Shown piece after piece: positions 3,425 through 58,940 of a DNA stretch of 63,586 nt. The position numbers and the translations under genes were made by a program. This stretch comes from Rhina ancylostomus (lineage: Eukaryota): assembly GCA_030265395.1 (NCBI GenBank), contig JARFYF010000059.1:21829398-21892983 (forward strand). The letters are read 5' to 3'. A model generated the notes under the pieces. The model was not told the DNA's origin, searched no databases, and saw only the letters and a program-made list of their open reading frames with translations. Numbering within the stretch: the first letter of the stretch is position 1; each line of letters begins with the position of its first letter.

Positions 3425-5299
3425 GTCACCTATGAGGGTTTCCCTACTTGCAATACACATTTATGCAATGGAAGCAGAATCAAAGTGATTTTAAAATAAG
3501 ATTTTTAGATTGTCAAACATTTCAGAATCTTACAAATTATGACAAATCTTAAATGACCTGCAGCTTAGCATGCAAAACTGCCTTTATATGCTTCCTTGGC
3601 TTTGCTATTTGCGTTTTTTGCATTTCCTCTTCTACAAAACAAAAGAAGTAGTTCCAACAAGAAATGTCACAAATTTCACAAATTACCCTAATTTTCCTTT
3701 AAAAATAAACAGCTAAGAAATGTCTGCAAACCATGTTTCTTATGTCTCAAGCACAATTTATTGTATGTGAGGAATATCAGACTGATTTTACTAGAATGCA
3801 AAAAATTTTTCTCCTCCTAAAATAACTATTGATGTTGAAATAAGAATAGAAGTGCAATATTACTGAGGAGTGTTTGACATATTCAGATCATTGCTTCAAG
3901 AAAGAACAATTGGCTGTAACCTGTTTTAAAATATCTGGCACAGGGACTTGGTGCCAATTGTTATGGGTTTGATTGCAGATACCAAGAAACACATTTTTTA
4001 TATGATACCTATATGAAACAAGAGCAGTTTAGCTGTTTCATAAATGAACAGAAATGGCAATTTTAGAAAGATAAAAATCTTAGTTTCCATTAAATAGCAC
4101 TGGAAATTCACTGGAAATATATCCCTTTTATTTAGAATTTTCAATTAAATATACATGTGTTGTTATTTTCCAGCAGAGATCAGTAGATAATAACTAGNNN
4201 NNNNNNNNNNNNNNNNNNNNNNNNNNNNNNNNNNNNNNNNNNNNNGAGGCCAGTTGTAGCATAACAATCTCTGTCCCAGATGAGAACAGCTGAGGACTAA
4301 CATTCCTAGAAACTTTAGCTCACGCAGAAAGAAGCATTAAAGGCCTATTCCTCTCTTCCTGAAGTCAGAACTGGCTGTGAATATTGGGAGGATCTGCGTA
4401 GGGAAGGGCTGACACTTTGAATTGGGGGATGAAGGAGCTAATGGCTGACACTATGCTTGGATATGGAGGGATCAGGAAGGACCAGCATCATGTTCGGTGG
4501 TGGGAGGGGAAGGGGGTGGTGGTTAGAACTGGGAGCAGAAGACTCATGAAGTGATTGGGGATGGGAGAGCCACCACTTTATAATGGGAAAGGAGGGTGGG
4601 TGGTGATCAGTAGTGGCAGTGCATAAGAAGGGGCAGGAATCACACAGTTAATTGGATTAAAAAGTGGGTAGGTTAGGGGTTCAGCTATATGCTAGAGGTA
4701 AGGGAGTAGTGTGGAGGCTGGCGCAATGCAGTAGCAGAGTGGGGAATAGGATGTAGGTAAATACTTGGCTTAACATGTAGGCCTCCCAATTCAACACTCT
4801 GCAAGTAAGCTCACCTCGTCCTGGCCATGTCCAATATCAGGCACTCCCAGGACAACATGATCTAAGTTCCCCTTCAATGTTCAGAAAGGGGAGCTGCACA
4901 GGGAATGATGTCATTTCTTGAGCCCCAATGCAGAAATTAGGTCATGATTGGAAGGGTGACTGATGACAGGATGTGTCCAGTTAAATTTTGTGATTGACGA
5001 GACGCAACCTGGAACTGCTCACAAACTCAGTGATGTAGTACTGAAGACAACGGTGCTTTACAATCTAATTTCTAGACAATGAACTCACTATAGATAAAGA
5101 AAAGCATTCCTTCAAAAAAAAAGTAAAATTCAAACATAACACTGCAGAAAATGTATTCAGAAAGGGCTTTAAACCAACGTCATGCTGTTAAATCCAGCTC
5201 TTTATCTTGCAATTGTTTCTGTGAATCCACCTCAAATGGACTTTATGAAAGTAACTTGTCCTGAGCTGTACAGCGTTGCAAGTAGTTGCATTGTTGCTC

Positions 5300-24589: not shown

Positions 24590-24940
24590 TATAGGGGTGT
24601 AGCATAGATTTAGTTGACCCAGGATGAGCTTTGTGGAAATGGGTCTATACTTACCAGTGTCAAGAAGAAAGATAAATGATCTTATTGAAGCATATATGAT
24701 TCCAAGAGGGCAAAAGGCTAGAAAGTCTACAACTAGGGAATGCAATCTCAAGATGTTTTTTTTTTCCCCATTTTGGACCAAGATGCATAAAATACTCTTA
24801 CTAAGAAGAATTTTAAATCTTTTGAATTCTCTAGCTCAGAATGATCAGTTGTTAAGTATATTCAAGACAAGATCGATATAGAAGGGATTTATTGGTTGTG
24901 GAGTCCGTGTTTTAAATGAGCTTGAATGAAGAGGACAAGA
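24590..24940 (+). mobile_element. Degenerate CR1 3' fragment
   Basis: MGLYLPVSRRKINDLIEAYMIPRG (cf. LGLYSLExRRxRGDLIExYKIxxG). Confidence 0.65.
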
Positions 24941-24949
24941 TCCTACTTA

Positions 24950-25665
24950 AAGAATTACAGAATGGTTACAGCATAAGCTATTCAACCTATTGTGTCTGTG
25001 CTGGCTCTGTCAGCGCAATCTAGTCAGTCCCACTACCTGTAAGTTCTTTCCTTTCAAACACATATCCAGCTCCCTTTAGAACACAACAGTTGAATATGCC
25101 TCCACTGCTATCATTGATAGTGCATTCCAGATCCTAATCAGTTTCTGCACAAAAAGGTTTCTCTTCATGTCATTTATGGTTCTCCTGCCAGTCACCTCTG
25201 TTCATGTCCCTTGGCTTCCAACAATGGGAAGTTTTTTCTCTTTCTCTTTGTATATACCCCACGTAATTTTGAATTCCATACTTGCATTCTTCTCTGTTCC
25301 AAGGAGAACAATCATTGCTTGTGCAGCCCATCTACAAAACCAATCCTGGAGCAAAAAAGCAAACTGCTGGCGGAACTCAGCAGGTCAGGCGACATCTGTG
25401 GAGGGAAATGGATAATTGATGTTTCAGGTCCAGATGAAGGGTCTTGACATGAAACATCATTTCCCTCTACAGTTGCTGTCTGACCTGCTGAGTATCTAAA
25501 GCTGTTTGTTTCTTGCTCCAGACTCCAGCATCTGCAGTCTCTTGTGTTTTCCTCAACCCTGGAATCATTTTAGTAAATCTCTTCTGCACCTCATTAATGC
25601 CTACACATCATTCCTAAAGTGTGGTGTTCACAACTGGACACAATACTGCAGTTATTGCCAAATCA
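24950..25665 (-). mobile_element. CR1 3' end, interrupted by a palindromic repeat
   Basis: CR1 tail at ~24955-25010, gcattccagatcctaa, and cacaactggacacaatactgc (minus reading YCVQLW-like). Confidence 0.75.
25346..25548. repeat. Fold-back (palindromic) Penelope pLTR-derived element with central hammerhead-like motif
   Basis: Paired arms: ctggagcaa/ttgctccag, actcagcaggtcag/ctgacctgctgagt, tgatgtttcaggtc/gacatgaaacatca. Centre cagatga-agggtcttgacat-gaaac. Confidence 0.8.
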
Positions 25666-36309: not shown

Positions 36310-36805
36310 TGGTGCTTTAGAAATGCACCAACCAAATGCACATGATGTACCTTTATAAGTGTTTAAGATTATGGCAGATTTGGGTGGTGTAAATAGTGAA
36401 CAGCTGTTCCATTTGNNNNNNNNNNNNNNNNNNNNNNNNNNNNNNNNNNNNNNNNNNNNNNNNNNNNNNNNNNNNNNNNNNNNNNNNNNNNNNNNNNNNN
36501 NNNNNNNNNNNNNNNTGAACAGCTGTTCCATTTGTTGACAATTCAGTGACCATGCAATACAGATTTAAAATTTTGGGCAAAAGATAAAAGGAGGATGCAG
36601 AGAATATGATCTGGAACTCACTGACTAATGAGTGGTGGAAGTAGAATTAATCAAGGGTTTCAAAAGAGAATTGGATGGGCACAAGGGAATTTTCAGGGCT
36701 ACAGGGAAAGAGGAATATGACTGATAGGATTGTTCCCCTAGGAGTCATCATAGTTACAGTGCCCTGAATGGCCTCCTTCTATGCTGTAACAATTCCATGA
36801 TATGA
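36310..36805 (+). mobile_element. CR1 3' end spanning a gap
   Basis: VFKIM...EQLFHL, atctggaactcactg, tail ctgaatggcctccttctatgctgtaacaattccatga. Confidence 0.75.
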
Positions 36806-40239: not shown

Positions 40240-41520
40240 AAGACACAAGAGACTGCAGAAGCTGGAATCTGAGCTACAAACAGTCTGCTGGAGGAACTCA
40301 GTGTATTGAGCAGCATCTGTGGGAGATAAGGAATTGTTGATGTTTTGGGTCAAAACCCTGCATCAGGACTGCAAATGAAGAAGGGAGACAGCCAGTAGAA
40401 ACAGGAGAGGGGTGTAGTTACGCAGGAGCCTAGGCTGATTGGTGGATTGCGGAGGGCTGAAGGATGGGCAAGTCCATCTTGGGAGGGGAGGGAAGGGGTG
40501 GAGTTGGGAGACATAGACAGGTGGAGGGCAGAGAAAAAAAGGGGAGGCANNNNNNNNNNNNNNNNNNNNNNNNNNNNNNNNNNNNNNNNNNNNNNNNNNN
40601 NNNNNNNNNNNNNNNNNNNNNNNNNNNNNNNNNNNNNNNNNNNNNNNNNATAGACAGGGGGAGGGCAGAGAACAAAAGGGGAGGCAGATGGAGATGCGTG
40701 GGGGGAGGGGAGAGTAAAGGTGGAGACAGCTACTGGAGGGTGATAAGCGGGGACACAAAGGCTACCAGTGCTGGAATCTGATAAGTAAGGGAGTGATAAT
40801 GGGAGCCAATTGGGGGGATGAGTATGGCAGATGGAACCAGAACCAGATGGGGGAAGGGTGAGCCTGTGGGTGAACTGTGTGTAGGAGGGGGATGAAGATT
40901 GGTGATGGGGGTCTTGGCAGGGTGGGAAAGGGGACAGAAATGAGAGGACTGGAGGAGGATCAGAGGGAATGGGGAGGGGGGATACACAGGAGGGGAGGGT
41001 TACCTAAAATTGGGCAAAACAATACTCATGCCTTTGGGTTGTGGACAACTCAGGTGGAATATGAGTTTTGTTTCTCTAGTTTGCATTGTATCCCTCCCTG
41101 ACAGTGGAAAAGGCACAGGTTGGTATGGGAATGGGAAGGGGAGTTGACATGCCATGTAGCTGGGAACTCAGGATGGCCAGGTGCTCTGCAAATCTGTCAC
41201 CTGGTCTTTGCTTGGTCTTGGTGGTGTAGAGGAGGCCACATCAGGAGCACCAAATACAGTAGACAAGGTTGGAGGAAGTACATGTGAATCTTTGCCTACA
41301 CTGGAAGGGCTGTTTTAGCTCCCTGGAGGGTGGTGAGGGAGGAGATGTAAGAACATGTGTTGTGTCTCCTGAGGTTGCTGGGGAAAGTGCCAGGGATCAG
41401 GGAAGGGTGGCTGGGGAGGGCTGAGCAGAGCAGGGAGTCATGGAAGGAGTAGTCCCTGCAGAAGGTGGAAATAGATGGGGAGGAGGAAACATGGCTAGTA
41501 GTGGGATCTTGCTGCAGCTC
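40240..41520 (-). mobile_element. Penelope-like element 3' part: GIY-YIG endonuclease, pyrimidine-rich spacer and pLTR
   Basis: Minus reading QPFQCRQRFTCTSSNLVYCIWCS*CGLLYTTKTKQRPGDRFAEH (~41185-41330). Terminal repeat 40240-40370 carries cagtc-ctgatgc-agggttttgaccc-aaaacatc. Confidence 0.85.
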
Positions 41521-45994: not shown

Positions 45995-46088
45995 GAGGCA
46001 TAAAAAGCAAAAAAAACCACTAGATGCTGGAAGTTTGCAGAAAGAAACAGAGTTAACATTTCAGGTTGAAGATCTTTGATCAGGTTGT
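45995..46088 (-). repeat. Penelope pLTR-derived short repeat with decayed hammerhead core
   Basis: Minus reading ctgatca-aagatcttcaacct-gaaatgttaactctgtttc...ttccagcatct. Confidence 0.6.
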
Positions 46089-48699: not shown

Positions 48700-48890
48700 T
48701 GAGGCAGCACCAGTTGAAAAAGCGTAACAGAATTAACATTTCAGGTCAGAGACCATTTATTGTGCCAATGAATCTGCAACCTGAAATGTTAACTCTGTTT
48801 CCCTTTCCTCAGATGCTGCCTGCATGTTTCTATCTATTTTGTTGTTTTTATTTCAGATTTCCAGCACCTTCAGCATTTTTTAGCTTTTCA
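48700..48890. repeat. Palindromic Penelope pLTR-derived repeat
   Basis: aacagaattaacatttcaggt (48726-48746) pairs with acctgaaatgttaactctgtt (48779-48799), followed by cagatgctgcctg...tttcagatttccagca. Confidence 0.7.
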
Positions 48891-54439: not shown

Positions 54440-54496
54440 ATCCATGAGAAGAGAAACAGCATTAACTTTTAGGCCAAAAACCCTGCATCAGAACTC
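54440..54496 (-). repeat. Penelope pLTR-derived fragment with hammerhead-like core
   Basis: Minus reading gagtt-ctgatgc-agggtttttggcct-aaaagttaatgctgtttctc. Confidence 0.6.
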
Positions 54497-55329
54497 AAGA
54501 GTACCATCTGCATGATGAAAGTGCTTGCAAAACAGTTTTAAGTCACTCCAGTCTTCCCTTTGTATGGGATTCATACTTCTTCTTATAAGTAAAATTTATT
54601 GCATAATATAGTAGAAATCATAGGGAAAGCAGAATGACTGTGATATCAGTGGAGGGTTATTATCCCTCCACTGATATGAAACACCCATGGCTGAGCTTGC
54701 AGTGTTGTTACATATGTATAACACAAATTATATCATCTATTGGGTAGTGATTTTATTTGTGTCAGTTAAAGTGCTTTAGTTTGTAAGATGATAAACATCT
54801 CCATAGTGTATGTGGATTTCCCATGACACGCGCAGTCAGATGAATTGTTAGGCAGAGAAATTGGATAGCACCAAACATCACATACTGGAACTACAATGAG
54901 TGATTAATTAGTGCCCATTTGATAAAATTTGTGCTGTAGTTTCATTATGATGATTGTGGCAGTCTTCAGTCCAAATCCTGATGATCTCAGATGAATGAAA
55001 TTACCCTCAATGTAGTTCTTTCAAACCAGTCAATCTCTACAATACCAACATGCCTCCAAGTTGTTAAGCATCCCTTTAAATAGTGCAGACAGAGGGGTTC
55101 TTCCTCTGTTGCTCAATGGCAGGTTACCTGTGAATAGATAGTACATGGTAGTGGATGGATCTTTTAAGCCAATTTGGCCAGGGTGGTGTCAAATGGGCAT
55201 TGCTCAGTGATGGATGTCATCAACTACCTAATCTGCATAATTCTGGCATGTGCACCAGGTAGCTCATGTCAATAAAAATCTTATTCATGAGCAATCCCTT
55301 GGGATTAAGGAAGACTTACTGCTTTCAAC

Positions 55330-58237: not shown

Positions 58238-58940
58238 CTGGGGAAAGGGCGAACCTGGGTGAATCAGAAGGAGGAAGAATGGAGCACAGGCAGTGTGAGT
58301 ACCTGAATTTGGAAAATTCAGTGTTAATACCACTGGGTGGTAGAGTACCCAGGCAGAATATGAAGTGTTGTTCTTCTAGTTTGAGTTTAGTCTCATCCAG
58401 GCAGTGAGGAGCACGAGGACAGACAGGACATGGGAGTGGGAAGTTGAAATGGCATGCAAACAGGAGCTCAGGATGGCCATTGAGGACAAGAGCACAGGTG
58501 TTTCGCAAAACAGATGCCCAGTCTCCGCCATCTTGCTGATGTAGAGNNNNNNNNNNTAGAGGAGGCCACACCGAGAGCACCAAATGCAGTAGTCGAGATT
58601 AGAGGAAGTGCAGGTGAACCTATGCCTCACCTGGAAGGGTTGTTCAGGTCCCTGTATGGTGGTGAGAAGTATTACACCTCCTACAGCTACACAGTAAAGT
58701 GTCAGGGGATACGGATGGGTGAGTAGGTAGGGTATGAGTGAACTAGGGATCATGGAAAGATGGTCCCTGTGGAAAGCAGAAAGTGGTGGGGAGGGGAAGA
58801 TATGACTGATGGTGGGATTCTGTTTTAGCTGGCAGAAATGATGAAGGATGATGTGCTGGATGTGAAGGCTGGTAGGATGTAAGGTGAGGACCAAGAGAAC
58901 TCTGGAGGGGGAGTGACAGCAGAAGTCTGGGAACGGCAGA
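58238..58940 (-). mobile_element. Penelope-like element GIY-YIG region
   Basis: IILHHFCQL..HIFPSPPLSAFHRD..IQGPEQPFQVRHRFTCTSSNLDYCIWCSRCGLL and KLEEQHFIFCLGTLPPSGINTEF. Confidence 0.9.

What the first reader, a model, noticed from the sequence alone, without database searches (positions are those of the whole stretch)
25346..25548. ~175-nt fold-back element built around a hammerhead-ribozyme motif, nested in a CR1
Seen: long inverted arms (25346-25430 vs 25446-25521) enclose cagatga-agggtcttgacat-gaaacatc. The arms match the end of the Penelope element at 40240-40370. Known: Penelope pLTRs carry minimal type I hammerheads (CUGANGA...GAAA, short palindromic helix III) and often occur as inverted terminal copies. 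Inference: this is a non-coding, SINE/retrozyme-like unit of two inverted pLTR ends that inserted on its own. The core here has CAGAUGA, so it is probably inactive.
Basis: partly seen in the sequence, partly recalled or inferred. Interest (0 to 1): 0.7.

Follow-up and report, generated by a model that had tools for sequence, protein, structure and literature searches.

The report
Decayed back-to-back Penelope retroelement ends
This 200-base mirror-image stretch is an old, broken insertion of two back-to-back ends of a very common Penelope-type jumping gene, likely built afresh where it landed rather than copied as a self-contained ribozyme element, so it is largely ordinary.

Summary
The fold-back is real (z -10.4) and splits a CR1. 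It is two head-to-head 3' ends (pLTRs) of a Penelope-like element: a tailed arm (25428-25548) and an inverted tail-less arm (25346-25430), joined at GTC. This layout is published (PMC3846280, PMC8557442).

It is not a fixed-end SINE or retrozyme. Of 77 clean tailed copies, 39 have an inverted partner, with 33 different junctions. This exact junction occurs 48 times against 7,052 copies of the core word. Among 30 of those 48 the tail lies left (13), right (9) or nowhere (8).

CAGAUGA is a lineage-wide core, about as common as CUGAUGA (8,408). This copy is predicted dead, mainly because it lost the helix I 3' strand.

Family-wide, 5' ends pile up at an initiator-like TCAGT just before the hammerhead (9.3% per base against about 1%), with no excess at the cleavage site and an excess G that may be a copied cap. 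The scan already noted this class on other DNA (227 notes, six in this genome). Low interest.

The parts
25036..25343 (-). CR1 LINE, end of ORF2, downstream half of the split target
   Evidence: 65% over 322 columns to uninterrupted relative L354, which reads ...KRFTKMIPG...LFSLEQRR across the site; the name CR1 for this motif is recalled, no library call named it
25346..25430 (-). Inverted, tail-less pLTR arm: family positions -13 to +71 (0 = hammerhead cleavage site); may extend to 25342 (+75) with a one-base insertion
   Evidence: 85% to subfamily A consensus, alignment
25427..25430 (.). Head-to-head junction; GTC (GGTC) can be read as either arm (microhomology)
   Evidence: Sequence; same junction at 48 places genome-wide
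25428..25548 (+). Direct, tailed pLTR arm: family positions -31 to about +97/+100; starts at the family's 5'-end hotspot
   Evidence: 87% to subfamily A consensus; hotspot statistics
25428..25458 (+). Minimal type I hammerhead relic: CAGAUGA core (U4A, lineage-wide), helix II with a wobble and a mismatch, helix III palindrome broken, helix I 3' strand deleted (8 nt missing at 25458/9)
   Evidence: Alignment to family consensus and folds; descriptor from PMC4209133
25522..25548 (+). One-sided Penelope 'tail'
   Evidence: 3,159 exact copies of a 30-nt tail word, 0 for the reversed control; absent from 33 of 39 inverted partners
25549..25655 (-). CR1 LINE, upstream half of the split target
   Evidence: L354 resumes at 25549; CR1 relatives in sequencing-run contigs resume at 25549-25551
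25342..25351 (.). Possible target-site duplication, ambiguous: 10 bp with one mismatch against 25553-25562, but most of it can also be read as arm sequence, in which case there is little or no duplication

Best explanation
The stretch is one old insertion, into a CR1, of two short head-to-head copies of the ribozyme-bearing end of a Penelope-like retroelement, likely made on the spot when both cut target strands primed reverse transcription. Shown: the two arms, the one-sided tail, the variable junctions, the shared 5'-end hotspot and the presence in four related organisms. Inferred: the element's RNA begins at the A of TCAGT (-32), just before the hammerhead. The element's protein nicks both strands and starts copying inside the RNA at two sites (about +100, with tail, and about +65, without), as shown in vitro for an anole Poseidon element (PMC11167929). 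Each cDNA runs toward the RNA 5' end, and repair joins the two 3' ends. Here the tailed cDNA ran off at -31 and was joined to the other through GTC at -13. The palindrome is a by-product and the hammerhead is inherited cargo, since decayed.
For: 39 of 77 clean tail-anchored copies have an adjacent inverted arm; 33 of 39 lack the tail; 33 distinct junction pairs; 22 of 39 have a 10-18-bp TSD against 0 of 117 swapped flanks. Exact junction 48 against 7,052 core words; in 30 of the 48 the tail is left 13, right 9, neither 8; mean distance among them 0.240 against 0.237 to other copies; 19 label changes against 19.2 shuffled. The inverted arm reaches over 5 nt further 5' than the tailed arm in 20 of 39, which snap-back of one tailed cDNA cannot give. 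5'-end rate 9.3% per base at -37 to -26 against 0.3-1.3% elsewhere (116 ends); 58 of 88 core-anchored copies stop there, TTTATA lies 31 nt before the A. 14 of 20 loci of the GIY-YIG-like region have a family hammerhead end downstream at score over 100; CxCxxCxxC linker and VYC...LLY.GET motif. Layout described in PMC3846280 and PMC8557442; two-strand cleavage and two start sites in PMC11167929.
Against: This copy has no clean TSD. The tree is poorly resolved and the AU test does not reject one clade for same-junction copies (p 0.17). Deletions after insertion could move arm ends and junctions, weakening the argument against snap-back. This copy alone (inverted arm inside the tailed arm's span) fits snap-back equally well. 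Pfam gave only a sub-threshold GIY-YIG match (E 0.16, 1 of 8 peptides; 0 of 3), and the endonuclease is tied to a U4A-core copy by one locus across an assembly gap (L148). No RNA evidence for the start site.
Confidence: 0.8

Rival explanations
1. A fixed palindromic master (SINE- or retrozyme-like) was transcribed and re-inserted as a unit; this is one of its copies.
For: The same junction occurs 48 times and dominated the best hits to the whole unit. One clade is not rejected (p-AU 0.17).
Against: Tail side differs among same-junction copies (13 left, 9 right, 8 neither) and arm variants differ. No clustering. The junction is under 1% of core words. The sample was selected by that junction. 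No head-to-tail tandem array here.
Confidence: 0.06
2. One cDNA (or an antisense RNA, as PMC3846280 proposes) folded back on the GTC/GAC microhomology and copied itself; the endonuclease then resolved the hairpin near +65.
For: Fits this copy exactly: the tailed arm runs to -31 and the mirror restarts at -13. Arms are closer to each other (mean 17.8% different, 33 pairs) than the sum of their distances to consensus (25.5%). Self-priming is the published proposal.
Against: In 20 of 39 copies the tail-less arm holds sequence the tailed arm lacks; five copies have both arms ending near -31 with 7-41 nt of filler; the same junction occurs with the tail on either side.
Confidence: 0.2
3. A longer, perfect head-to-head insertion lost its centre later by microhomology-mediated deletion at GTC, so the junction is a secondary scar.
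For: Long palindromes are unstable (general knowledge); this copy has another 8-nt deletion in the arm; PMC3846280 reports such deletions in Penelope copies.
Against: Unpaired copies also begin at -31 to -34, so the tailed arm's start needs no deletion. Pieces from related organisms span the same junction.
Confidence: 0.15
4. The 5'-end hotspot is a splice acceptor (polypyrimidine + CAG), as the Drosophila Penelope intron ends at helix I, and copies come from spliced RNA.
For: The sequence is YnCAG; the D. virilis intron end maps to the 5' end of helix I (PMC4209133).
Against: G(-31) is kept in 50 of 58 and A(-32) in 40 of 58 stopped copies, and no shared upstream exon is visible in the listing.
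Confidence: 0.1

Closest known systems
Insertion units of endonuclease-positive Penelope-like elements with inverted 5'-truncated pLTR, one-sided 30-40-bp tail and TSD (Pen2a_Av and others, PMC3846280; PMC8557442; passages read)
   Same: Head-to-head pLTRs, tail at one end, junction overlap, TSDs across the family.
   Different: No ORF between the repeats; both arms cut to about 85-120 nt; family TSDs 10-18 bp against 8-10 bp reported; this copy's TSD is unclear.
Neptune/Nematis-type PLE (CX2-5CxxC linker before a C-terminal GIY-YIG; PMC8557442, passages read)
   Same: Related copies carry a CxCxxCxxC linker and a VYC..C..C.LLY.GET motif upstream of the hammerhead end.
   Different: No reverse-transcriptase tree was made; Pfam support is below cut-off; clade not fixed.
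Minimal type I hammerheads of metazoan PLEs (PMC4209133; abstract, results and discussion read)
   Same: Extra base after position 9, short helix I, palindromic ACGU in place of helix III in the family consensus.
   Different: Lineage-wide U4A (subfamily A part) and CUGAUGC (subfamily B) cores; this copy has lost helix I 3' strand.
Non-LTR retrozymes (bioRxiv 10.64898/2026.07.22.740005; first part and passages read)
   Same: Non-coding, PLE-derived, type I hammerhead.
   Different: Retrozymes are head-to-tail tandem units with a complete hammerhead in each; this is a head-to-head pair with one broken core.
LINE-1 twin priming (PMC11702581, passages read)
   Same: Both target ends primed, 5' inversion, microhomology at the junction, extra G at full-length 5' ends.
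   Different: In L1 the two cDNAs copy neighbouring parts of the RNA; here both copy the same part, giving a palindrome.

Membership tests
EN+ Penelope-like element insertion | Inverted 5'-truncated copy head-to-head with a direct pLTR | tested here: met
EN+ Penelope-like element insertion | 30-40-bp tail at one end only | tested here: met
   Tail 25522-25548; 33 of 39 inverted partners end at +55 to +75, 2 of 39 have two tails
EN+ Penelope-like element insertion | Target-site duplication | tested here: inconclusive
   Family: 22 of 39 against 0 of 117. This copy: 10 bp with CR1 loss, or next to none
EN+ Penelope-like element insertion | Parent with C-terminal GIY-YIG endonuclease upstream of the pLTR | tested here: inconclusive
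   Motifs present and linked in 14 of 20 loci, mostly sister subfamily B; Pfam E 0.16 only; U4A lineage linked by L148 across a gap
EN+ Penelope-like element insertion | Telomerase-like reverse transcriptase in the parent | not tested
   No RT region was recovered or placed in a tree
Minimal PLE hammerhead (family level) | CUGANGA and GAAA core | tested here: inconclusive
   Canonical in 8,408 exact words; U4A in 7,052, the lineage of this copy
Minimal PLE hammerhead (family level) | Helix I, helix II and palindromic helix III | tested here: met
   CAGUC/GACUG, GGGU/ACCC and ACGU in column counts and consensus
Active hammerhead (this copy) | Intact helix I and helix III around the cleavage triplet | tested here: not met
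   8-nt deletion removes the helix I 3' strand; ACGU reads ACAU; helix II has a mismatch
Active hammerhead (this copy) | Self-cleavage | not testable with these tools
   Needs an RNA assay
Non-LTR retrozyme | Head-to-tail tandem units, each with a complete hammerhead | tested here: not met
   Single head-to-head pair in unique CR1 flanks
Fixed-end SINE-like palindrome | Shared ends and junction among copies, common descent | tested here: not met

The most novel reading that the evidence does not exclude
These stubs are run-off ('strong-stop'-like) cDNAs that map the element's capped RNA start to the A of TCAGT, 32 nt before the hammerhead cut, with the cap copied as an extra G; the templates were uncleaved, and a lineage with a U4A core spread as widely as the canonical one. 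Penelope palindromes would then be the genomic record of two-ended priming, and the ribozyme would be dispensable for spread or tolerate U4A in vivo.
Probability: 0.45. Interest if true: 0.45.

Novelty: new member of a known kind. Interest (0 to 1): 0.22.

Why it matters
The locus itself matters little: it is one decayed copy among thousands. The family statistics bear on an open question, how Penelope elements form inverted ends and whether their hammerhead is used. They give testable positions: an RNA start at -32, priming sites near +65 and +100, no excess of ends at the cleavage site, and two abundant variant cores (U4A and CUGAUGC) that could be assayed.

Tried and rejected
Rfam: no hammerhead match in the window (E up to 5) or in 15 loci with better-kept cores (E up to 10); minimal PLE hammerheads lack helix III, so this says little.

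The first whole-unit search suggested a fixed junction; rejected as query bias once copies were sampled by arm, tail or core only.

Sequence shared downstream of the tail (a tandem ORF start): 1 pair among 90 loci, not followed.

Pfam on the window's endonuclease region: nothing in 3 frames. PDB profile search: one chance-level hit, E 1.6. The protein atlas gave no answer.

Sequencing runs: no RNA holder listed; no contig spans the whole unit and no orthologous empty site was seen.

Lunse et al. 2017 on PLE hammerhead variants is not held, so whether U4A was tested there is open. No supplements were opened; Fig. S2 of PMC11167929 may already show 5'-end coverage.

Full report
OBSERVATION. The inverted arms, the motif and the CR1 setting are as described. 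Self-alignment gives 25346-25521 at 71% over 185 gapped columns, and the RNA fold has z -10.35 with 0 of 200 shuffles as stable. The right arm continues past the mirror to about 25548, so the unit is about 203 nt. The match to 40240-40369 is 70%. An uninterrupted CR1 relative, L354, aligns up to 25343 and resumes at 25549; the CR1 name rests on a recalled ORF2 end motif. Contigs of runs from four coded organisms run from unique flank into the left arm with 0 to about 6% differences, and short pieces span the junction. The insertion is therefore real and older than their split. X1 may be the window's own species.

FAMILY. The genome is 2.2 Gb. A profile of the element end found 43 hits in 463,586 contiguous bases, 26,578 of them N. 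A 30-nt tail word occurs 3,159 times, its reversed control 0 times. From the first 90 of these, all on one contig, two subfamilies emerged (26 A, 32 B, 32 unassigned at first pass). Both have the minimal hammerhead layout of PMC4209133: helix I CAGUC, core, one extra A, helix II GGGU/ACCC, GAAAC-GUC. A reads CAGAUGA, B reads CUGAUGC. The finding is type A and the 40240 element is type B. A protein search with the 40240 element's coding remnant gave loci of which 14 of 20, including that element itself, have a family end downstream at score over 100, nearly all type B. Their alignment shows a CxCxxCxxC linker and a GIY-YIG-like motif, the Neptune/Nematis pattern in PMC8557442. Pfam support is weak: one of 8 peptides at E 0.16. 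One U4A-core copy, L148, has the same domain upstream across an assembly gap.

ANATOMY. With 0 at the cleavage site, the tailed arm covers -31 to about +100 and the inverted arm -13 to +71, sharing GTC at the junction. This is the published Penelope arrangement: inverted 5'-truncated pLTR, one-sided tail, TSD (PMC3846280; PMC8557442). The TSD here is unclear. A script found 10 bp with one mismatch, but that reading loses about 10 nt of CR1. The other reading has the CR1 continuous with 0-2 nt lost and the left arm reaching +75 with one inserted base.

IS THE PALINDROME A REPLICATING UNIT? Most likely not. Of 90 tail-anchored loci, 4 were dropped (alignment missed the tail) and 9 had N at the junction. 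Of the 77 left, 39 have an adjacent inverted arm; 33 of these end at +55 to +75 and 2 have a second tail; 22 have a TSD of 10 bp or more against 0 of 117 swapped flanks. The 39 show 33 distinct junction pairs, and the largest group (5) has both arms ending near -31 with different fillers. The finding's junction occurs 48 times against 7,052 core words. In the first 30 of the 48, which include the finding itself, the tail is on the left in 13, the right in 9 and absent in 8. On 80 columns, 21 of these 30 are no closer to each other (0.240) than to 74 of 90 other copies (0.237), and need 19 label changes against 19.2 for shuffles. The tree is weak and does not reject one clade (p-AU 0.17). A recurrent microhomology join explains these data better than a master copy.

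THE HAMMERHEAD. U4A is not this copy's decay: exact 16-mers number 7,052 with CAGAUGA and 8,408 with CUGAUGA, at similar divergence (12.9%, n=83; 11.0%, n=11). This copy has further lost the 8 nt after the cleavage triplet, including the helix I 3' strand, has ACAU for the ACGU palindrome, and has a mismatch in helix II. It is predicted dead. Whether U4A itself abolishes activity is open: PMC3088659 notes that U4C lowers activity in vitro yet supports a viroid, and a search for U4A with hammerhead terms listed 2 papers, neither on topic by title and abstract start. PMC11167929 found that hammerhead mutants do not reduce insertion in vitro.

WHERE COPIES BEGIN. Among 116 arm ends, the rate of 5' ends is 9.3% per base at -37 to -26, 0.3-1.3% in other bins and 0.9% at the cleavage site (paired arms are not independent and ends are good to about 3 nt). 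Of the first 90 core-anchored copies, 88 without N, 58 stop just upstream of the core and 30 continue; G(-31) is kept in 50 and A(-32) in 40 of the 58. In both subfamilies that A sits in TCAGTCC with TTTATA 31 nt upstream, the spacing of an initiator and TATA-like box (consensus recalled). Where the base before AGTCC is not C, my hand counts of the first 100 listed matches give G 46, A 26, T 28 and G 39, A 30, T 31. T includes decay of long copies. G against A exceeds the local 0.395 expectation (p 3e-5; p 0.004), but against an even split only the first set and the pool are significant (p 0.02 each; second set p 0.34). An extra G marks copied caps in full-length L1 insertions (PMC11702581), so this is modest support for a capped start.

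MECHANISM. PMC11167929 showed a Poseidon protein cutting and extending both target strands and starting inside the RNA at two sites that bracket the tail. Here 3' ends cluster at +95 to +100 (31 of 90) and +55 to +79 (42 of 90). The simplest model is two primings, one per strand, each running toward the RNA start, with repair joining the two cDNA ends. Snap-back of one tailed cDNA fits this copy but not the 20 of 39 copies whose tail-less arm reaches further 5', unless later deletions trimmed them. Priming, start site and cap copying are inferred; none is shown here.

NOVELTY. The architecture is in print. Searches listed no paper whose title or abstract start reports the 5'-end hotspot or cap copying for PLEs; that is a limited check, and Lunse et al. 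2017 and all supplements were unseen. The scan has 227 notes on this class in at least 33 genomes and six in this genome. Some already report double priming and the hotspot; I consulted them after reaching this reading. A look-up for the U4A core and cap found no note. Verdict: new member of a known kind, interest 0.22.

Noticed in passing
window 40240-41340 (- strand): Longer remnant of the sister subfamily B Penelope: GIY-YIG-like region, pyrimidine-rich pLTR, CUGAUGC hammerhead and tail; a second coding fragment lies at 58300-58820.
   Followed up: partly
genome-wide, subfamily B: Subfamily B has C at position 9 of the core (19 of 25 copies) and only 3 pairs in helix I; a second abundant variant hammerhead.
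   Followed up: partly
window 48702-48870 and 46020-46085: A more diverged head-to-head pair with tail, and a single arm of the same distant subfamily (97% over 30 nt).
   Followed up: no
window 54445-54500: Short diverged hammerhead-arm fragment on the - strand next to an assembly gap.
   Followed up: no
window 24600-24800 (+): A second CR1-like ORF2-end fragment facing the split CR1 in the opposite direction; name recalled from the motif.
   Followed up: no
L119, L122, L168, L217, L304: Junction fillers often repeat short pieces of the hammerhead 5' end or of the flank, as after repeated slippage at the cDNA end.
   Followed up: no
core-anchored copies, position -34: T is common just before the 5' terminus (25 of 58), often as TGAG or TG before TCC; possibly an untemplated base after the cap G, or T-rich target microhomology.
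   Followed up: no
window 36398-36528, 4169-4245 and other gaps: Inverted and direct 'repeats' flanking N runs are gap artefacts of the assembly.
   Followed up: partly
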